64,000 bases of DNA from a bacterium (GTDB lineage: Bacteria > Patescibacteriota > Minisyncoccia > UBA6257 > HR35). The translations under genes were made by a program, and so were the position numbers. The notes under the pieces were generated by a model, which searched no databases, was not told the DNA's origin, and worked only from the letters and a program-made list of their open reading frames with translations. Positions 3,210-37,393 of the stretch are shown in pieces. The number at the start of each line of letters is the position of its first letter. The stretch's first letter is position 1. The stretch is from assembly GCA_041640295.1 (NCBI GenBank), contig JBEQAR010000002.1, forward strand, positions 38,101-102,100, given 5' to 3'.

Positions 3210-3324
3210 GCTTTGCGGTACCTACTCTCGCGCCTTATCGGCACTACCATCGGCGCTAAGCCGTTTCACCTGCTTGTTCGGAATGGGTAAGGGTGTTTCC
3301 AGCTTAGCTATGCAACCACAAAGC
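3210..3324 (-). rRNA. rrf: 5S ribosomal RNA. It is an orphan, with no 23S gene adjacent.
   Basis: A GC-rich island sits in AT-rich DNA. Its reverse complement reads GCUUUGUGGUUGCAUAGCUAAGCUGGAAACACCCUUACCCAUUCCGAACAAGCAGGUGAAACGGCUUAGCGCCGAUGGUAGUGCCGAUAAGGCGCGAGAGUAGGUACCGCAAAGC. This contains the conserved 5S blocks CCGAAC, GUGAAAC, AGCGCCGAUGGUAGUG and GCGAGAGUAGG. The 5' and 3' ends pair over 10 bp to form helix I. Confidence 0.85.
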
Positions 3325-11630: not shown

Positions 11631-11703
11631 GGGCTCGTAGCTCAGTTGGTAGAGCACTGCTATGGCATGGCAGGGGTCGCGGGTTCGAGTCCCGCCGAGT
11701 CCA
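11631..11703 (+). tRNA. tRNA-Ala (anticodon GGC)
   Basis: It folds as a cloverleaf. The anticodon loop AUGGCAU has U33 and A37. The acceptor stem carries the Ala identity pair G3:U70. The T-loop is UUCGAGU, and no CCA is encoded. Confidence 0.85.
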
Positions 11704-17957: not shown

Positions 17958-19166
17958 ATGATTAATATTAAACAATTCCAAAATTTAATTGAAGAAATTA
18001 GTGAAGATAAGGATTTGAATGAAATAGAAGTTAAAGAAGCAATTTTAAGTGCGTTAGCTGCTGCCTATAAGAAAGATTTTCGTCATAAAGAAGAAAGAGT
18101 TGAGGGTAAATTAGATCCAAGTGGTCGATGGGTGGAATTTTATTTAGTAAAAACAGTTGTTGATGATAATGACCAAGAAATTAGATTTAATCCTTATCGA
18201 CATATTAGACTTTCTGAAGCAATGAAAATCAATCCAGGAATTAAGGTAGGTGATGAAATTAAATTACCACTGGAACCAAAAGATAATTTCAGTCGAGTAG
18301 CTACTCAGACAGCTAAACAAGTTATTTTACAGAAAATAAAAGAAATAAGTAAAAATAAAATTTACGAAGAATTTAAAGCAAAAGAAGGTAAGATTGTTTT
18401 AGGGGTTATTCAGAAAGTAGATAATAAAATGGTTTATGTTGATTTAGGAAAAACAATTGGTTATATGTTTCGCAGTGAGGCTATTCCTGGTGAATTTTAT
18501 CGAATCGGTAATCGAATGAGATTTTATGTTTATGCCGTAGAAAAAACTTCAAGAGGTGTAGAAGTTTATCTTTCGCGTTTTCATCCTTTATTTATTAGTT
18601 CAATCTTTGCTTTTGAAATTCCCGAAATAGCAGAAAATCAAATAGAAATTAAAAATATAGTTAGAATTCCTGGCGTAAGAACAAAAATTGCTGTAAAGTC
18701 TAATGTTGAAAACCTCGACCCTGTTGGTGCGTGTATCGGTCCAAAAGGAGTAAGGGTTTTAAGTATTTCTAACGAACTTAATGGAGAAAAAATTGATATT
18801 ATTTTATACTCTGATGATCCTGTTCAGTATGTGATTAATGCTCTTTCTCCAGCTAAAGTAATTAGCGCTGAGGTTTTACCAAAGAGAACAATTAAAGTTT
18901 ATGTTAGCGAAGATCAACTACCTATTGCTTTAGGAAAAAATGGTCAGAATATTAAATTAGCAGCAAAATTGACTGGTTGGCGAATTGATGTAAGATTAGC
19001 CGAAGAACCAGAAAAAGAAATTGAAGGAGGTGTTGCTGAGGTAGAAGAAAGCCAGCCAGAAAACAACACTCAACAATCCGAAGAAAGCATTCAAAAAGAT
19101 ATTTTAGAAACAACCGAAGAACCTAAAACTAATTCGGAGATTGATCAACAAGAGTCGATTAATTAA
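17958..19166 (+). CDS. nusA: Transcription termination/antitermination factor NusA
   Basis: The protein is 402 aa with an N-terminal domain, an S1 domain and two KH domains (GVRTKIAV...GACIGPKGVRV, ALGKNGQNIKLAAKLTGW). It has an acidic tail. Confidence 0.9.
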   Translation: MINIKQFQNLIEEISEDKDLNEIEVKEAILSALAAAYKKDFRHKEERVEGKLDPSGRWVEFYLVKTVVDDNDQEIRFNPYRHIRLSEAMKINPGIKVGDEIKLPLEPKDNFSRVATQTAKQVILQKIKEISKNKIYEEFKAKEGKIVLGVIQKVDNKMVYVDLGKTIGYMFRSEAIPGEFYRIGNRMRFYVYAVEKTSRGVEVYLSRFHPLFISSIFAFEIPEIAENQIEIKNIVRIPGVRTKIAVKSNVENLDPVGACIGPKGVRVLSISNELNGEKIDIILYSDDPVQYVINALSPAKVISAEVLPKRTIKVYVSEDQLPIALGKNGQNIKLAAKLTGWRIDVRLAEEPEKEIEGGVAEVEESQPENNTQQSEESIQKDILETTEEPKTNSEIDQQESIN

Positions 19167-19183: not shown

Positions 19184-19660
19184 ATGGAGATCGATGTTTT
19201 TATTGAAATTTCTCAAAATAGTTCAATTAAATATGAATTAGATAAAGAAAAAAATATTTTAAGAGTTGATCGATTTTTATACACCGCTATGTTTTATCCT
19301 TTTAATTACGGTTTTATTCCAAATACTCAAGCAGAAGACAACGATCCCATCGATGTATTAGTTTTATCCTCTTTCCCTGTTTTGCCTGGAAGTTTAATAA
19401 AATGTCAACCAATTGGTGGTTTAGAAATGGAAGATGAGGCTGGTAAGGATGAAAAAATAATTGCTATCCCTTTAGCAAAAATCGATCCTTTTTGGCAAGA
19501 ATATCAAGAAATTTCTTTACTTCCAGAAAGTTATAAAAATCAAATTAAACACTTTTTTGAAAATTACAAAACATTAGAACCAGGGAAATGGGTAAAAATT
19601 AATAACTGGTTTAGTAAAGATAAAGCTATTGATTTAATCAATAAATATTCTAAAAAATAG
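19184..19660 (+). CDS. ppa: Inorganic pyrophosphatase (family I)
   Basis: The protein is 158 aa with the motifs YPFNYGFIPNT and DNDPIDVLVL. Confidence 0.9.
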   Translation: MEIDVFIEISQNSSIKYELDKEKNILRVDRFLYTAMFYPFNYGFIPNTQAEDNDPIDVLVLSSFPVLPGSLIKCQPIGGLEMEDEAGKDEKIIAIPLAKIDPFWQEYQEISLLPESYKNQIKHFFENYKTLEPGKWVKINNWFSKDKAIDLINKYSKK

Positions 19661-19675
19661 AATCTAAAAATAAAA

Positions 19676-22600
19676 ATGGAGAACTTCAATCGGATAGAAG
19701 AAAAAATAATCAAATTTTGGCAAGCTCATAATATTTTTCAGCTAAGCGTAGAAAAAAATAAAAATAATAAACCATTTGTTTTTGTTGAAGGACCACCCTT
19801 TGCAAACGATAAACCTCATATCGGTCATTTTTTAACTCGAATCTACAAAGATGTTATTTTAAGATTTAAAAATATGTTAGGTTATTATGTAGAAAGAGTA
19901 GCCGGGTGGGATACTCATGGTTTACCTATTGAGGTGGCAACAGAAAAATTTTTAAACTTATCAAATAAAAAAGAAGTAATTAATTATGGAATAGATAGGT
20001 TTAATAATATATGCCGAGAATTAGTGATGAAATATAAAAAGGACTGGGAAGATTTTGATAAAAGAATTGGTTTTTGGATAGATCATCAGAGATCATATAT
20101 TACTTATGAACCTCATTATATGGAAAGTTGTTGGTGGTTAATAAAAAAAATTTATGATCAAGGCTTTTTAAAAGAAGAATATCGAGTTTTTCCTTACTGT
20201 CCAAGGTGTGAAACAGTATTATCTCAAGCAGAAGTAGGTCAAGTAGATGCTTATAAAAAGGTTTTAGATCCAGATTTATATGTTAAATTCCCTATTAAGA
20301 ATAAGGAAAATGAATATTTTTTGGTTTGGACAACTACTCCTTGGACATTAATTTCTAACTTAGCTTTAGCTATCAATCCTAATTTTAACTATAGCCTTTA
20401 TCAATTGGCTGATGAAAAATATTGGGCAGTTGAAAATTTAGCTGATAAGTTATCAAAATTGACTAATAAAGAAATTAAAGTTATTGAAACTATATCAGGC
20501 GAAAAATTAATTGGACAAGAATATCAACCATTATTTTCATTAACTAAATTAGAAAATTTTGATAATTGTTATAAAATCTATCCGGCAGATTTTGTTAGCC
20601 AAGAAGAAGGAACTGGAATTGTTCATATTGCTCCGGCTTTCGGTGAAGAAGATTTTGAATTAGCAAAAAAATTTAATTTACCTATTTTTAATCCTATTAA
20701 TGTTAATGGTAAATTTAATTCTGATGAACCCGAGCCAATTATAGATAAAATTAATAATCTTTTCTTTAAAGAAGCTAATCCAATTATCGTTGATGAACTC
20801 AAACAAAGGAATTTAGTTTTTTATATTAAGCTTAATGGTTATGAACATGATTACCCACATTGTTGGCGATGTAAAAATCCTTTAATTTATTATGCTACTC
20901 AAAATTGGGTTATTAGGGTAAGTCGCTTTAATCAAAAATTAATCCAGCTAAATAAAAAAATAAGATGGTTTCCTCCGGAAGTTGGTAGCGGTAGATTCTA
21001 TGAATGGTTAAAAGAAGGTAAAGATTGGAACTTATCACGAACTAGATTTTGGGGAATTCCTTTGCCAATTTGGAGATGTGATCGTTGTGGTTCTACCGAA
21101 ATAATTTCTAATTTACAAGAATTAGCTAATAAATTTAAATCGCAAAATAGATATTATTTAATGAGACACGGCGAAGCAGTAAGTAATGTTAAAAAAATTT
21201 TGTCCTCATATCCAGAATTATTTTTTAATCCCTTGACTAATAGAGGTGTTAAACAAGTTAAAGATAATTTAAAGAAAATAAAAAAATTAAATTTAGATTT
21301 AATCGTTACTTCACCGCTTTTAAGAGCTAAACAAACTGCTGAAATTATTGCTCAAGAATTACATTTACCCATTGTTATCGATTTTGATTTAAGAGAAATT
21401 GATTTTGGTGAATTTAATGGTAAAAAAGAAGAAACATATAATCAACTGATTAAAGATCAATATAATCAATATTTTACTAAACCCACTGGAGGAGAAAATT
21501 TAACTGAAGTTAAAAGACGAATGATTAAGGTTATTTTAGAATTAGAGAAAAAATATGAAAAACGGAATATTTTGATTATTTCACACCAAGATCCTCTTTG
21601 GGCATTATTGGGAGAAATGCATGGATTATCAATTAATCAAACAATTAGCAGAAAAGATTTTATTTTAAATCCAGGCGAGATTAAAGAAGGAAAATTTTTA
21701 GTCTTACCTCGTGATGCTGATGGTGAGATAAATATCCATCGCCCATATATTGATCAGTTTCAGTGGCAATGTAAATGCGGTGGTCTTAAAAGCCGAGTAG
21801 AAGAAATTATTGATATTTGGTTTGATTCAGGCGCTGCACCTTTTGCTTCCAGACATTATCCCTTCGAAAATAGAAAAGAAATTGATGAAAATAAAATTTA
21901 TCCAGTTGATTTCATTGTCGAAGGAATTGATCAAACAAGAGGTTGGTTCTATACCTTATTGGTTTTAGGTTATTTAATTAAAAAAGATATCTCATATAAA
22001 AATGTTGTTTCGTTAGGTTTAGTTTTAGATCAAGAAGGCAAAAAAATGTCTAAATCTTTAGGGAATGTAGTCAATCCCTTAGAAGCTATTGAAAAATGGA
22101 GTAGTGATTTGCTTAGATTTTATTTTTATTATGTTAATAGTTCTGCCGATAATAAAAAATACGACGAAAAATCAATCAATGCTTTGAAAGCAAATTATTT
22201 TAATCTGGTTTTTAATATTTTAAATTTTTATCGGATATATTATGATCCAGAAAAAAATAAATTGAAGAATATAAAAAGTGATAATATTTTAGATCAATGG
22301 TTCGATATTAGACTTCGTTCAGCTTATTATAATGTTTTTTATTATTTAGAAAATTACAATCCAAATAAAGCTAGTCGCGAGCTTTATGATTTGATTAATG
22401 ATTTTTCTCACTGGTGGTTAAGAAGAAGTAGAAAAAGATTTCAAAAGCCTCAAAATAAAAAAGAAAAACTAATTGCCTTATTAAAACTTGAAGATTATCT
22501 TTTAGATTTTTCTATTATCTCTGCTCCGCTTCATCCAATTTTTAGTGAATATTTATACCAAGAATTAAGAAATGAAGTTAGAAACAGAAGGAAAACTCAT

Positions 22601-23188
22601 TTAAGTGTTCATTTAGAAAAACTCTCCCCACCATCCAAAATTAAAACTAAAGAAGAAATTATTTTAAAAACAATGAGTCATATTAGAGAAATAGTTTCCT
22701 CGATAATGATGTTAAGAAAAACTAATAATATCAAGACTCGTCAGCCTTTATTAGATTGTTATTTAGCAGAAAAAATCCCAATGGAGTATTTAGAACTTAT
22801 TAAAGATGAGACAAATATTAAAAATATTTATATAGGTGAACCTAAAAATAAAGAAAATTATTTAGAAGCCCAAGAACCAATTTTAATTTGGTTAAACAAA
22901 AATATCACTAATGAACTCAAGGAAGAGGGTATTGTTAATGATTTTATTAGGTATATACAGGATGGAAGACAAGATTTAAAACTAACTCCTTCGCGTCAAA
23001 TTAATATTTATCTAAAATTACCTGATAATCTTAAAAAAATCATAAAAGAACATCAAAAACGACTTAAATACGAAACAAATGCTAAAAAGATAGAATTTAT
23101 TAAACCTAAGAAATTTCATTTGGAAAAAGAATTTACCTATGAAACTTTTGGTAAAGTGATAATCTGGTTAGATTTAAATTTAAGTTAA
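19676..23188 (+). CDS. ileS: Isoleucyl-tRNA synthetase carrying an inserted histidine-phosphatase-like domain of about 185 aa
   Basis: It has the HIGH motif PHIGH, the IleRS signature WDTHGLPIE, the editing-domain motif WTTTPWTL and the KMSKS motif. The insert lies between the WRCDRCG and HRPYID...CKCGG zinc-knuckle halves. The insert begins YYLMRHGEAV and contains SPLLRAKQTAE and ISHQDPLWAL, which are the RHG and second-His motifs of the phosphoglycerate mutase / histidine phosphatase superfamily. Confidence 0.9.
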   Translation: MENFNRIEEKIIKFWQAHNIFQLSVEKNKNNKPFVFVEGPPFANDKPHIGHFLTRIYKDVILRFKNMLGYYVERVAGWDTHGLPIEVATEKFLNLSNKKEVINYGIDRFNNICRELVMKYKKDWEDFDKRIGFWIDHQRSYITYEPHYMESCWWLIKKIYDQGFLKEEYRVFPYCPRCETVLSQAEVGQVDAYKKVLDPDLYVKFPIKNKENEYFLVWTTTPWTLISNLALAINPNFNYSLYQLADEKYWAVENLADKLSKLTNKEIKVIETISGEKLIGQEYQPLFSLTKLENFDNCYKIYPADFVSQEEGTGIVHIAPAFGEEDFELAKKFNLPIFNPINVNGKFNSDEPEPIIDKINNLFFKEANPIIVDELKQRNLVFYIKLNGYEHDYPHCWRCKNPLIYYATQNWVIRVSRFNQKLIQLNKKIRWFPPEVGSGRFYEWLKEGKDWNLSRTRFWGIPLPIWRCDRCGSTEIISNLQELANKFKSQNRYYLMRHGEAVSNVKKILSSYPELFFNPLTNRGVKQVKDNLKKIKKLNLDLIVTSPLLRAKQTAEIIAQELHLPIVIDFDLREIDFGEFNGKKEETYNQLIKDQYNQYFTKPTGGENLTEVKRRMIKVILELEKKYEKRNILIISHQDPLWALLGEMHGLSINQTISRKDFILNPGEIKEGKFLVLPRDADGEINIHRPYIDQFQWQCKCGGLKSRVEEIIDIWFDSGAAPFASRHYPFENRKEIDENKIYPVDFIVEGIDQTRGWFYTLLVLGYLIKKDISYKNVVSLGLVLDQEGKKMSKSLGNVVNPLEAIEKWSSDLLRFYFYYVNSSADNKKYDEKSINALKANYFNLVFNILNFYRIYYDPEKNKLKNIKSDNILDQWFDIRLRSAYYNVFYYLENYNPNKASRELYDLINDFSHWWLRRSRKRFQKPQNKKEKLIALLKLEDYLLDFSIISAPLHPIFSEYLYQELRNEVRNRRKTHLSVHLEKLSPPSKIKTKEEIILKTMSHIREIVSSIMMLRKTNNIKTRQPLLDCYLAEKIPMEYLELIKDETNIKNIYIGEPKNKENYLEAQEPILIWLNKNITNELKEEGIVNDFIRYIQDGRQDLKLTPSRQINIYLKLPDNLKKIIKEHQKRLKYETNAKKIEFIKPKKFHLEKEFTYETFGKVIIWLDLNLS

Positions 23189-24211
23189 GTAAAATTTTCC
23201 CTCGCGATTTTTGATAATTCCTTTAATTTCCATATAACTTAAAATAACTAAAAGCTCTTGAATAGCTATTTTTGTTTCTTTATTTAATTCCTCAATTGTT
23301 TTTTCCTTGATTTTTAAGCTATCATAAATTAATTCTTCTTGTGGAGCCAGCTTTAAATTTTTTAACTTTCTATTAACTTGATAGTCAAAGTTAAATTCAG
23401 TTAAAATATCTTCTATGTTAGTTATTAGTTTAGCTCCCTGCTTGATTAAATTATGGCTACCTTCAAAATTTTTATTAGTAATTTCTCCTGGAATAACAAA
23501 AATATCTTTCCCATACTTTAAACCATAATTAGCCGTTATCAGAGCGCCGGATTGAATTGGCGCTTCAATAATAATCACCCCATCACTAAGACCAGCGATA
23601 ATTCTATTTCTTAATGGGAAATGATATGGCAAAGGTGGAGTAGTGGGAGAAAATTCTGAAATAATTAAACCATCATTTTCAATTATTTTTTCGATAATTT
23701 TTCTTTTAGTTGTTTGAAGAGCAAAAACAATACCTTCACCCAAGATAGCAATTGTTTTGCCAGGATTTTTCAGTGTTGCTTTATGGGCAGCAAGATCGAT
23801 ACCATAAGCTAAACCACTAATAATACTTATACCTAATTCTGATAATTGTTGACTAAATCGCGAAGCGATCCTTAAACCGTACTCTGAAGCTTTTCTCGTA
23901 CCCACAATCGCTAAAGTTAGTTGACTATTTTTAATTATTTCTTTATTACCCAATAAATAAATTCCCAATGGTGGTGTATCAATATTTTTCAATTTTTCTG
24001 GATAATCAATATTGCTTAAAGTTAAAATTTCTATTCCAAATTGTTTTAATAATTTTTCTTCTTCTTCAAAGTTGAATTCCTCAAATTTATTTTCATTTTT
24101 TAAATAATTATAAAGAGTTTCAAAATTGCCAAATTTATGATATAATTTAATTATCTTAGGTTGATAAGGTTTAAAAATTTTATTGATAACATTAAAATAA
24201 ACCTCCTCCAT
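23180..24211 (-). CDS. dprA: DNA processing protein DprA (Smf)
   Basis: The DprA Rossmann core includes LAIVGTRKASEYG, SGLAYGIDLAAH and GALITANYGLKYGKDIFV. A C-terminal wHTH domain follows. Confidence 0.85.
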   Translation of the reverse strand: MEEVYFNVINKIFKPYQPKIIKLYHKFGNFETLYNYLKNENKFEEFNFEEEEKLLKQFGIEILTLSNIDYPEKLKNIDTPPLGIYLLGNKEIIKNSQLTLAIVGTRKASEYGLRIASRFSQQLSELGISIISGLAYGIDLAAHKATLKNPGKTIAILGEGIVFALQTTKRKIIEKIIENDGLIISEFSPTTPPLPYHFPLRNRIIAGLSDGVIIIEAPIQSGALITANYGLKYGKDIFVIPGEITNKNFEGSHNLIKQGAKLITNIEDILTEFNFDYQVNRKLKNLKLAPQEELIYDSLKIKEKTIEELNKETKIAIQELLVILSYMEIKGIIKNREGKFYLT

Positions 24212-35739: not shown

Positions 35740-37256
<1,517 letters not shown>

Positions 37257-37393
37257 AAACCTAACCAGGATAATTAAAAACCTTTTTAATATAAATTTTA
37301 GTGTACAATAAAATCATCAAATCAAAAACAATCTTAATAATTTACTCAACCAACATTTATAATTCAATTCCACAATTTAGAAAGATAAGTATT

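What the first reader, a model, noticed from the sequence alone, without database searches (positions are those of the whole stretch)
21146..21700. Histidine-phosphatase (PGM-like, RHG-motif) domain inserted in frame inside isoleucyl-tRNA synthetase
The flanks are a continuous IleRS. It has PHIGH, WDTHGLPIE, the editing domain, and KMSKS later on. Between the two halves of the catalytic-core zinc knuckle (WRCDRCG ... HRPYIDQFQWQCKCGG) lies an extra domain of about 185 aa. That domain begins YYLMRHGEAV and contains SPLLRAKQTAE and ISHQDPLWAL. These are the catalytic RHG histidine, the conserved Arg and the second-His motif of histidine-phosphatase superfamily branch 1. All catalytic residues look intact, so this is probably an active phosphatase or mutase module fused into an essential aaRS. 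I know of no described IleRS architecture like this. Possible roles include trimming a phosphorylated nucleotide or aminoacyl-adenylate by-product, or a moonlighting regulatory function.
Basis: partly seen in the sequence, partly recalled or inferred. Interest (0 to 1): 0.8.

Follow-up and report, generated by a model that had tools for sequence, protein, structure and literature searches.

The report
Phosphatase domain nested inside isoleucyl-tRNA synthetase
An essential protein-synthesis enzyme (isoleucyl-tRNA synthetase) of a tiny symbiotic bacterium carries a complete, apparently active phosphatase enzyme inserted in its middle, and this turns out to be a conserved but undescribed feature of a whole bacterial radiation (Patescibacteria), in which the same phosphatase is otherwise encoded right next to the synthetase gene.

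Summary
ORF 19676-23188 (+) is one continuous 1170-aa type-2 IleRS. It scores 801 bits on TIGR00392 and has intact HIGH, KMSKS and editing elements. About 195 aa (residues 489-687, nt 21140-21736) are nested between the two Cys pairs of its CP3 zinc knuckle. This insert is a histidine phosphatase branch-1 domain (PF00300, E=3e-37). AlphaFold2 gives pLDDT 97 for it, and its best fold match is PhoE (1H2E). It is not an artefact: the identical protein occurs on at least 10 independent contigs.

It is also not unique. All 120 best full-length homologues (down to about 40% identity, all Patescibacteria) carry the insert. The catalytic residues are conserved across these 120: R497, H498 and H637 are invariant, R550 is kept in 118, and E574 is always E or D.

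The new result is that in sister lineages, including cultured Minisyncoccus archaeiphilus, the closest relatives of the insert are stand-alone ~190-aa genes. They are wedged, often overlapping, between argS and an insert-less ileS (argS-HP-ileS-recO). Other variants fuse the phosphatase to ArgRS or to TsaC/Sua5 next to ileS, or nest 2-4 copies in IleRS at two sites.

The domain is therefore a conserved, probably active phosphomonoesterase partner of IleRS. Its substrate is unknown. No paper describing this was found.

The parts
19676..23188 (+). ileS: single 1170-aa ORF encoding a type-2 isoleucyl-tRNA synthetase with a nested phosphatase domain
   Evidence: ORF. (TIGR00392 800.9 bits, above the 621.4 cut-off). 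(best fold match is P. megaterium IleRS2 8c8v, TMt 0.84). (AF2 mean pLDDT 93.5, pTM 0.87).
19814..19828 (+). HIGH signature (PHIGH, aa 47-51) of the synthetic site
   Evidence: H51 is nearly invariant in the 104-sequence alignment.
20279..20710 (+). CP1 editing domain (Pfam tRNA-synt_1_2 match aa 202-345; WTTTPWT aa 218-224 invariant)
20198..20209 (+). CPRC (aa 175-178), first half of the CP-core zinc site; its partner CWRC is at aa 396-399 (nt 20861-20872)
   Evidence: C175, C178, C396 and C399 are invariant.
21071..21091 (+). WRCDRCG (aa 466-472): first Cys pair (C468, C471) of the CP3 zinc knuckle, upstream of the insert
   Evidence: The CP3 assignment comes from PMC7191050.
21140..21736 (+). 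Inserted histidine-phosphatase (branch 1, PhoE/CobC-like) domain, aa 489-687. It replaces about 5 residues of the CP3 loop found in insert-less relatives.
   Evidence: PF00300, E=2.9e-37, aa 494-655. (boundaries). (pLDDT 96.8; 1H2E TM 0.79).
21164..21169 (+). R497-H498 of the RHG motif: phosphate-binding Arg and nucleophilic His
   Evidence: Both are invariant in 120/120 homologues.
21323..21325 (+). R550 (SPLLRAKQTAE): second phosphate-pocket Arg
   Evidence: 118/120 conserved.
21395..21397 (+). E574 (DLREIDFG): putative general acid
   Evidence: E in 104 and D in 16 of 120. It aligns to the LxE...G motif of PhoE and CobC.
21584..21586 (+). H637 (ISHQDP): second catalytic-pocket His
   Evidence: 120/120 conserved.
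21737..21784 (+). HRPYIDQFQWQCKCGG (aa 688-703): conserved IleRS DLHRPYxD motif and second Cys pair (C699, C701) of the CP3 zinc knuckle
22043..22057 (+). KMSKS loop (aa 790-794)
22292..23110 (+). Anticodon-binding domain (aa 873-1025) and type-2 C-terminal domain DUF5915 (aa 1051-1145)
19184..19660 (+). ppa: family I inorganic pyrophosphatase, 15 nt upstream of ileS. It is context only, not part of the fusion.
   Evidence: PF00719, E=1.5e-56. The nusA-ppa-ileS-dprA order is conserved in close relatives.

Best explanation
This is a genuine three-enzyme-site protein. A complete type-2 IleRS (synthetic site plus CP1 editing site) carries a PhoE/CobC-like histidine phosphatase rigidly nested in the loop of its CP3 zinc knuckle.

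Shown: the architecture is real and is the norm across a large part of Patescibacteria (Paceibacteria/Parcubacteria-type lineages). The phosphatase evolves as slowly as the synthetase and keeps its catalytic residues. It belongs to one Patescibacterial clade of ~190-aa phosphatases. In sister lineages these are separate genes, translationally coupled to ileS in the conserved block argS-HP-ileS-recO.

Inferred: a pre-existing partnership between a free phosphatase and IleRS was made covalent by moving the neighbouring gene into a tolerant surface loop, for example by duplication and deletion of the HP-ileS 5' segment. The IleRS part charges and proofreads tRNA(Ile) as usual. The inserted domain works as a phosphomonoesterase through a phospho-His498 intermediate. 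R497, R550 and H637 hold the phosphate and E574 acts as the acid.

Guess: the substrate is a nucleotide-type phosphomonoester tied to tRNA charging. I favour a blocking 2'/3'-terminal phosphate on tRNA, which would make the tRNA chargeable, or else a nucleotide by-product. I give this specific substrate guess only about 0.2. The stated confidence refers to 'active phosphatase that is a functional partner of IleRS'.
For: Identity and reality.

Fold and rigid docking: the full-length AF2 model has pLDDT 93.5 and pTM 0.87, and both linkers have pLDDT of at least 94. The insert alone has pLDDT 96.8 and matches PhoE, Rv2419c and CobC.

Lineage-wide occurrence: 120 of the 120 best homologues carry PF00300. 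Of the top 150 50%-identity cluster representatives of the insert, 84 are embedded in IleRS. 43 of 80 GTDB species loci have the insert.

Catalytic residues: conserved in the 120 homologues and in every copy of the multi-copy proteins.

Same rate as the IleRS body: for example 75/73/69% and 43/44/35% identity for the N-part, insert and C-part.

Genomic partnership: stand-alone homologues lie between argS and an insert-less ileS in L007, L009 and L011 and in 20 GTDB loci. Genes overlap, for example by 4 nt in the cultured M. archaeiphilus.

Independent further links to ileS: Sua5/TsaC-HP fusion genes sit directly downstream of ileS. There are ArgRS-HP fusions. A second insertion site lies after KMSKS, and IleRS can carry 2-4 copies.

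Nucleotide-type substrate lead: the best sequence matches among solved structures are CobC alpha-ribazole-5'-phosphate phosphatases, and the second-best NCBIfam hit is the RNase H/acid-phosphatase fusion PRK07238.
Against: No activity was measured and no substrate can be read from the sequence. The insert falls below the cut-off of every equivalog model (dPGM_arch, CobC, PspA).

One published description places CP3 on the side opposite CP2, which does not settle the question.

The G of RHG is replaced in 41 of 120 sequences and N504 in 53 of 120, so some lineages may have altered or weakened chemistry.

Gene adjacency in a conserved housekeeping cluster can be historical. ArgRS fusions are rare (3 clusters) and may be simple stop-codon losses.

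The domain is near-universal in a core operon. That fits a housekeeping role but not specifically tRNA-end repair. Charge analysis was uninformative.
Confidence: 0.55

Rival explanations
1. Co-expression hitch-hiker. The domain is an ordinary housekeeping small-molecule phosphatase or mutase of these reduced genomes, for example a phosphoglycerate mutase, a phosphoserine or sugar-phosphate phosphatase, or a nucleotidase for salvage. It happened to lie next to ileS and was fused into a tolerant loop. The fusion only guarantees constitutive expression and has no mechanistic link to aminoacylation.
For: The best NCBIfam hit is archaeal dPGM (124.6 bits), and other hits are PhoE-like, PspA and GpmB metabolic enzymes. 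The closest folds are all small-molecule phosphatases. CP3 is the most variable IleRS subdomain and so is tolerant of insertions. The cluster around it (pyrH, infC-rpmI-rplT, smpB, argS, recO) is generic housekeeping. ArgRS fusions are few and can be explained by adjacency.
Against: The phosphatase has been joined to ileS in at least four different ways: as an upstream overlapping gene, as a CP3 insert, as a second insert after KMSKS, and as a Sua5-HP gene immediately downstream of ileS. It has also been multiplied to 2-4 copies inside IleRS. That is hard to explain by chance adjacency alone. The linkers are conserved and confidently modelled, which suggests fixed docking. All metabolic equivalog cut-offs are missed by a wide margin, and the dPGM residues after the catalytic Glu (ERHYG) are absent (EIDFG).
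Confidence: 0.3
2. Protein phosphatase or assembly module. The domain acts on proteins rather than small molecules. It might remove inhibitory Ser/Thr/His phosphorylation from the synthetase (a counter to HipA-type kinases, from my own knowledge). Alternatively it might serve mainly as a dimerisation or scaffold module that brings IleRS, ArgRS and TsaC together.
For: The same domain is attached to three translation enzymes: IleRS, ArgRS and TsaC/Sua5. There is a weak partial match to SixA phosphohistidine phosphatase. Many family members are dimers (my own knowledge). Tandem and multiple copies exist.
Against: The closest sequence and fold relatives are small-molecule enzymes, not SixA, Sts or PGAM5. 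Full conservation of the catalytic residues, including in every extra copy, argues against a purely structural role. There is no kinase in the conserved neighbourhood.
Confidence: 0.1
3. Artefact or selfish element: a chimeric assembly, a mis-called fused ORF, an intein, or a mobile-element insertion into ileS.
For: None beyond the unusual architecture. The data are metagenomic.
Against: The identical protein is on at least 10 contigs from independent samples. More than 100 diverged homologues have the same insertion point and length (225-238 aa between the Cys pairs). There are no stop codons, no composition shift, no flanking repeats, and no intein, transposase or endonuclease domain.
Confidence: 0.01

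Closest known systems
Broad-specificity phosphatase PhoE (Geobacillus stearothermophilus, PDB 1H2E/1EBB) and alpha-ribazole-5'-phosphate phosphatase CobC (6NRU, 6E4B)
   Same: They share the ~200-aa branch-1 histidine-phosphatase fold (TM 0.75-0.80). They have the same catalytic set (RHG His, two Arg, Glu, second His), a similar short cap region, and the 'RLREI..G' motif.
   Different: Those are free-standing proteins, whereas this one is nested inside an aminoacyl-tRNA synthetase. Identity is only 24-26%. It scores below the CobC equivalog cut-off (90.5 against 162.9). Its substrate is unknown.
Type-2 (eukaryote/archaeon-like, mupirocin-resistant type) IleRS, e.g. Priestia megaterium IleRS2 (8C8V) and Thermus thermophilus IleRS (1ILE) with Zn-binding CP3
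   Same: The domain order is the same: Rossmann fold, CP core Zn site, CP1 editing, CP2, Zn-knuckle CP3, KMSKS, anticodon domain and type-2 C-terminal domain.
   Different: In known IleRS and in insert-less Patescibacterial IleRS the two CP3 Cys pairs are 29-39 residues apart. Here they are 227 apart because a whole enzyme is inserted. None of the solved IleRS chains matched by the fold search contains such a domain.
Bifunctional RNase H / acid phosphatase (NCBIfam PRK07238, M. tuberculosis Rv2228c type)
   Same: A CobC-like histidine phosphatase is covalently joined to an enzyme that works on nucleic acid. It is the second-best NCBIfam hit of the insert (93.7 bits).
   Different: That is an end-to-end fusion, not a nested insertion. 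The partner is RNase H rather than an aaRS. The score is far below the cut-off (326). The role of that fusion is also unresolved (my own knowledge).
IleRS with an extra enzymatic domain: 'isoleucine--tRNA ligase, N-acetyltransferase domain-containing' (NCBIfam NF040702)
   Same: It is a precedent, curated by NCBI, for an IleRS carrying an additional unrelated catalytic domain (listed).
   Different: The added domain is different (GNAT rather than histidine phosphatase). The window protein scores 276.5 bits against a cut-off of 1999, so it is not a member.
Stand-alone phosphatase gene upstream of ileS in Minisyncoccus archaeiphilus PMX.108 and in Staskawiczbacteria/Nealsonbacteria MAGs
   Same: It belongs to the same Patescibacterial phosphatase clade (31-45% identity to the insert) with the same catalytic residues. 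It has the same genomic partner, ileS, and overlapping or abutting reading frames.
   Different: It is a separate polypeptide, and the partner IleRS has a short, ordinary CP3.

Membership tests
Histidine phosphatase superfamily, branch 1 (Pfam PF00300 His_Phos_1) | Match to the family HMM above the gathering score | tested here: met
   128.7 bits against a cut-off of 21.7, E=2.9e-37, aa 494-655, profile positions 2-165 of 194.
Histidine phosphatase superfamily, branch 1 (Pfam PF00300 His_Phos_1) | Catalytic core: RHG nucleophilic His with its Arg, second Arg, acid Glu/Asp, second His | tested here: met
   R497, H498, R550, E574 and H637 are present. Across 120 homologues they are conserved 120, 120, 118, 120 (E or D) and 120 times. 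G499 and N504 are present here but variable in the family.
Histidine phosphatase superfamily, branch 1 (Pfam PF00300 His_Phos_1) | Alpha/beta/alpha phosphoglycerate-mutase-like fold | tested here: met
   The AF2 insert model has pLDDT 96.8. Foldseek matches 1H2E (E=1e-14, TM 0.79), 4QIH and 6NRU.
Histidine phosphatase superfamily, branch 1 (Pfam PF00300 His_Phos_1) | Phosphatase or mutase activity via a phospho-histidine intermediate | not testable with these tools
   This needs enzyme assays (wild type compared with H498A).
Cofactor-dependent phosphoglycerate mutase (NCBIfam NF038349 dPGM_arch; TIGR01258 pgm_1) | Score above the curated equivalog or subfamily cut-off | tested here: not met
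   dPGM_arch scores 124.6 against 225, and pgm_1 scores 30.8 against 81.7. The sequence after the catalytic Glu is EIDFG, not the ERHYG of dPGM (the motif is from my own knowledge).
Alpha-ribazole phosphatase CobC (TIGR03162) | Score above the curated equivalog cut-off | tested here: not met
   90.5 against 162.9.
Phosphoserine phosphatase PspA (NF045917) | Score above the curated equivalog cut-off | tested here: not met
   74.6 against 350.
Isoleucine--tRNA ligase (TIGR00392 ileS) | Score above the equivalog cut-off; HIGH and KMSKS motifs; CP1 editing domain | tested here: met
   800.9 against 621.4. PHIGH is at aa 47, KMSKS at aa 790 and WTTTPWT at aa 218. There is a Pfam editing-domain match.
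Type-2 IleRS | Type-2 C-terminal organisation and closest structural similarity to IleRS2/eukaryotic IleRS | tested here: met
   DUF5915 is at aa 1051-1145. The best folds are 8c8v IleRS2 (TMt 0.84), yeast 8wnd and T. thermophilus 1ile, ahead of type-1 8c9f, 8wng and 1qu2.
Acquired mupirocin-resistance IleRS MupA/MupB (NF000257/NF000258) | Score above the exception-model cut-off (1900) | tested here: not met
   649.6 and 688.2 bits. This reflects general type-2 similarity only.
IleRS with GNAT domain (NF040702) | Score above the cut-off (1999); presence of an N-acetyltransferase domain | tested here: not met
   276.5 bits. There is no GNAT Pfam hit.
Intein / mobile insertion | Hint/intein or homing-endonuclease domain, or flanking repeats | tested here: not met
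   Only His_Phos_1 is found in the insert. There are no flanking direct or inverted repeats of note.

The most novel reading that the evidence does not exclude
IleRS of these bacteria has a third catalytic site that acts on its own RNA substrate. The nested (or, in sister lineages, separately encoded and bound) histidine phosphatase would remove a blocking 2'/3'-phosphate or pyrophosphate from the tRNA 3' end. Such ends arise after RNase damage or toxSAS-type pyrophosphorylation, which is known to prevent aminoacylation (10.1101/2021.04.30.441581; PMC11559606). Removal would happen immediately before charging. This would amount to a built-in tRNA-end repair or licensing step coupled to aminoacylation, shared with ArgRS and the t6A enzyme TsaC.
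Probability: 0.15. Interest if true: 0.9.

Novelty: new variant of a known kind. Interest (0 to 1): 0.62.

Why it matters
Aminoacyl-tRNA synthetases are among the best-studied enzymes. Their added domains (editing, tRNA-binding, signalling) have repeatedly revealed new biology.

Here an unrelated, apparently active enzyme sits inside an essential synthetase across a major and poorly understood bacterial radiation. Comparative genomics shows that the link between the two genes predates the fusion and was re-made several times: as a neighbour, as an insert at two sites, as multiple copies, and as fusions to ArgRS and TsaC. This points to an uncharacterised phosphatase-dependent step associated with tRNA charging, or at least with translation, in Patescibacteria.

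The idea is directly testable, because a cultured relative (Minisyncoccus archaeiphilus) carries the split version and the fused proteins model with very high confidence.

There is also a practical point. The embedded domain can make metabolic reconstructions of CPR genomes score a 'phosphoglycerate mutase-like' gene that is really part of IleRS. Current annotation ('class I tRNA ligase family protein', 'hypothetical protein') hides the architecture.

Tried and rejected
1. Assembly chimera, intein or mobile element. Rejected: the identical protein is on at least 10 contigs. There is no composition shift, no repeats, no antisense ORF and no other Pfam domain in the insert.

2. A known lineage-specific IleRS subdomain. 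Rejected: insert-less relatives have only 29-39 residues at that point, and the insert is a bona fide PF00300 domain.

3. Assignment to a specific enzyme (dPGM, CobC, PspA, GpmB, SixA). All scores are below the curated cut-offs.

4. Geometry of the phosphatase pocket relative to the tRNA path. Not possible: model coordinates are not exposed to the sandbox and the afdb50 library was unavailable.

5. Direction and number of insertion events. Neighbour-joining trees of IleRS (insert removed) and of the phosphatase interleave fused and split forms and do not resolve this. I do not rely on them beyond 'one Patescibacterial phosphatase clade distinct from non-CPR stand-alones'.

6. Charge and pI as a hint of RNA binding. 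Stand-alone forms are basic (median pI 9.1) but inserted ones are not (median 6.4). This is uninformative.

7. ArgRS fusion as strong Rosetta-stone evidence. Downgraded: only 3 clusters exist, which can be explained by adjacency.

8. The first genome scan with a 31-sequence insert alignment failed because the alignment was too diverse. It was repeated with 7 close sequences, so the species count is a lower bound biased toward relatives of the window.

9. Literature. No paper links IleRS (or aaRS in CPR) with a histidine phosphatase. A TsaC/Sua5 paper mentioning phosphatase referred only to alkaline-phosphatase treatment. A 2026 survey of IleRS domain evolution does not mention the architecture.
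Full report
**1. What is in the window**

The region 21146-21700 lies inside one uninterrupted ORF, 19676-23188 on the + strand, encoding 1170 aa.

Pfam splits the class-I synthetase match into two stretches and places His_Phos_1 (PF00300) between them. That match covers aa 494-655 with E=2.9e-37 and 128.7 bits against a cut-off of 21.7. NCBIfam identifies the flanks as IleRS (TIGR00392, 800.9 bits against a cut-off of 621.4).

The region has no GC or skew anomaly. It has no antisense ORF of 40 aa or more and no flanking repeats. The exact 1170-aa protein is encoded on at least 10 contigs from independent samples (ENA and Logan assemblies), always with the same neighbours.

**2. Anatomy**

AlphaFold2 on a 104-sequence alignment gives a very confident full-length model: mean pLDDT 93.5, pTM 0.87, and no segment below 50. 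Both linkers into and out of the insert have pLDDT of at least 94. This suggests a fixed, docked domain rather than a floppy tether.

The body is a type-2 IleRS. Its best PDB matches are P. megaterium IleRS2 8c8v (TMt 0.84), yeast IleRS-tRNA 8wnd and T. thermophilus 1ile. None of the solved IleRS chains matched by the search contains an extra domain.

The insert modelled alone has pLDDT 96.8. It superposes on PhoE (1H2E, TM 0.79), Rv2419c, CobC, the riboflavin-pathway HFP and PspA. By sequence, its best solved relatives are CobC alpha-ribazole phosphatases (E=5e-16).

Alignment with insert-less relatives defines the boundaries. In ordinary Patescibacterial IleRS the two Cys pairs are 29-39 residues apart (C..C....EVIGSxEELxxx-[~5 aa]-DLHRPxID....C.C). 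In the window protein and its kin they are 224-238 apart, because about 195 residues (aa 489-687) replace the ~5-residue loop tip.

The split zinc knuckle belongs to the CP3 subdomain. In T. thermophilus IleRS this subdomain is zinc-binding, and it is structurally the most variable CP element among IleRSs (PMC7191050). It is not the catalytic core proper.

**3. It is a lineage-wide architecture**

All 120 best full-length homologues in a 5.8-billion-protein collection carry PF00300 inside IleRS. They range from 100% down to about 40% identity. Where named, they come from Patescibacteria, Parcubacteria or Minisyncoccia MAGs and are annotated only as 'class I tRNA ligase family protein', 'isoleucyl-tRNA synthetase' or 'hypothetical protein'.

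Across these 120, R497, H498 and H637 are invariant, R550 is kept in 118, and E574 is E (104) or D (16). The G of RHG is kept in only 79 of 120 and N504 in 67 of 120.

A full HMMER scan of 1.84 billion cluster representatives with the insert alone found 18,924 relatives. Among the best 150:
- 84 are embedded in IleRS (32 of these are full-length);
- 56 are stand-alone proteins of about 190 aa;
- 2 are fused to Sua5/TsaC;
- 1 is fused to ArgRS;
- 3 are tandem HP-HP proteins;
- 4 are unclassified proteins of 238-289 aa.

The insert diverges at the same rate as the synthetase around it. Examples for the N-part, insert and C-part are 75/73/69% and 43/44/35% identity. This indicates strong purifying selection.

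**4. The decisive context result**

The closest stand-alone homologues (P0005, P0006 and P0009; 42-45% identical to the insert) are encoded between argS and an insert-less ileS of 971-1000 aa. The block is pyrH-like kinase, argS, HP, ileS, recO, with overlapping or abutting frames.

A scan of one genome per GTDB species returned 80 loci, which I classified by tblastn:
- In 43 loci the phosphatase is inside ileS, often in the order argS-ileS::HP-recO. These include Paceibacteria, Sungbacteria, Yanofskybacteria, Wildermuthbacteria, Uhrbacteria, Colwellbacteria and Elulimicrobiales.
- In 20 loci it is a separate 180-207-aa gene directly upstream of ileS. These include Staskawiczbacteria, Nealsonbacteria and others. 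Several further loci cut off by contig ends show the same gene order.
- The split group includes the complete genome of the cultured Minisyncoccus archaeiphilus PMX.108 (PMC12281837). There the HP stop overlaps the ileS start by 4 nt, and the IleRS has a short CP3.
- A few non-Patescibacterial stand-alones (Arenicella and other Gammaproteobacteria, Cryomorphaceae) have no synthetase nearby and branch apart.

Further variants all involve ileS or its neighbour:
- Sua5/TsaC-HP fusion genes start exactly at the stop of ileS in two of three contigs.
- ArgRS-HP fusions exist in three clusters. In one genome the fusion is followed by recO, with ileS elsewhere.
- Some IleRS carry a second phosphatase at a different site, after KMSKS and before the anticodon domain. 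Others carry tandem copies, up to four.
- Every copy keeps the catalytic residues R, H, R, E, H.
- Five fused IleRS have lost all four CP3 cysteines yet keep the phosphatase.

In the window's own subclade argS has been replaced upstream by nusA-ppa, giving nusA-ppa-ileS::HP-dprA. This order is conserved in six relatives.

**5. How it most likely works**

Shown:
- The protein is a complete IleRS with a nested, well-folded, sequence-intact branch-1 histidine phosphatase.
- The gene partnership with ileS is older than the fusion and has been re-made repeatedly.

Inferred:
- The phosphatase is catalytically active through a phospho-His498 intermediate. R497, R550 and H637 form the phosphate pocket and E574 is the acid, as established for the superfamily.
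- It is a functional partner of IleRS rather than a passenger.
- The fusion could have arisen by duplication of the HP-ileS 5' segment followed by in-frame deletions, which turns HP-IleN-IleC into IleN-HP-IleC.

Guess:
- The substrate is a nucleotide-like phosphomonoester. The nearest characterised relatives include CobC, which acts on a ribose-5'-phosphate nucleotide analogue, and the RNase H/acid-phosphatase fusion.
- My favoured candidate is a blocking terminal phosphate on tRNA. tRNA 3'-pyrophosphorylation by toxSAS enzymes is a documented way to prevent aminoacylation (10.1101/2021.04.30.441581; PMC11559606).
- None of the eight tRNA genes in the window encodes CCA, so 3'-end maturation is entirely enzymatic.
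- I put this specific substrate at about 0.15-0.2.

The main rival (about 0.3) is a housekeeping metabolic phosphatase fused only for co-expression. A protein-phosphatase or scaffold role is less likely (about 0.1).

**6. Comparison with what is known, and novelty**

The insert passes every testable criterion of PF00300 membership. It fails the curated cut-offs of dPGM, CobC, PspA, GpmB and SixA, so it should be called a PhoE/CobC-like histidine phosphatase of unknown specificity.

The host is a bona fide type-2 IleRS. It is not MupA/MupB and not the GNAT-containing IleRS.

Domain insertion into the CP region of class Ia synthetases is a known principle (CP1 editing). Extra enzymatic domains on IleRS have a curated precedent (NF040702). 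Histidine phosphatases fused to nucleic-acid enzymes also exist (PRK07238).

A histidine phosphatase nested in CP3 of IleRS, with its split, fused and multi-copy relatives, was not found in any paper searched. That includes a 2026 survey of IleRS domain evolution. I therefore rate it a new variant of a known kind: real, widespread, unannotated and mechanistically open.

**7. Verdict**

The added value of this second look is fourfold:
- It shows that the architecture characterises a large part of Patescibacteria.
- It traces the architecture to a neighbouring, translationally coupled gene that is still separate in a cultured species.
- It documents additional fusion forms.
- It delimits what can and cannot be said about function.

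Interest is 0.62.

Noticed in passing
window 19184-19660 (+), with 17958-19166 (nusA) upstream and 23180-24211 (dprA, -) downstream: A family I inorganic pyrophosphatase gene lies 15 nt upstream of ileS. The order nusA-ppa-ileS::HP-dprA is conserved in six close relatives (L014-L018, L022). More distant relatives have argS upstream instead. PPase removes the PPi made by aminoacylation, so the adjacency may be functional. dprA overlaps the ileS 3' end convergently by 9 nt.
   Followed up: partly
P0251 (1419 aa), P0314, P0328, P0321, P0242 (representative-library proteins): Some IleRS carry two to four histidine-phosphatase domains. The copies are either tandem in CP3 or placed at a second insertion site after the KMSKS loop and before the anticodon-binding domain. 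All copies retain the catalytic R, H, R, E, H residues. P0242 has four copies behind a divergent class-I synthetase N-terminus.
   Followed up: partly
L010 820-1992 and L095 828-2009: Sua5/TsaC (threonylcarbamoyl-AMP synthase) fused C-terminally to the same phosphatase clade (46-49% identical to the window insert). The fusion gene starts exactly at the stop codon of an upstream ileS. Whether that ileS also carries an insert is unknown because the contigs are short.
   Followed up: partly
L096 6001-8070; L097 6001-8163: ArgRS with the phosphatase fused to its C-terminus (three 90% clusters only). In L096 the fusion is followed directly by recO, so ileS has left the locus while the phosphatase stayed with argS.
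   Followed up: partly
L035, L041, L060, L063, L064 (IleRS CP3 region): Five insert-bearing IleRS have lost all four cysteines of the CP3 zinc knuckle (for example N/D/I/- or E/G/S/N at those positions) but keep the phosphatase domain. The zinc site is therefore dispensable once the domain is present.
   Followed up: no
window 35740-37258 (-) and 3210-3323 (-): A full-length 16S rRNA gene and a 5S rRNA gene lie about 32 kb apart, and no 23S gene was reported in the window. The rRNA genes are therefore unlinked. This fits a Patescibacterial genome of about 27% GC.
   Followed up: no
window tRNA genes at 11631, 11745, 37560, 40292, 40372, 56640, 62982, 63065: None of the eight tRNA genes encodes a 3'-CCA, and their 3' flanks are A/T-rich. 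All CCA ends must therefore be added enzymatically. tRNA-Arg(TCT), the AGA reader expected to dominate in this AT-rich genome, is present.
   Followed up: partly
L068 5402-5887 and 6001-6570: Two tandem stand-alone phosphatase genes lie directly upstream of an insert-less ileS. This may be an intermediate form in gene duplication.
   Followed up: no
L055, L075, L091 (IleRS, just before the first CP3 Cys pair): An extra low-complexity insertion of about 25-50 residues (Q/N/S/P-rich) lies between 'PLPIWxC' and the CxxC of CP3 in some Uhrbacteria-like IleRS, in addition to the phosphatase insert.
   Followed up: no
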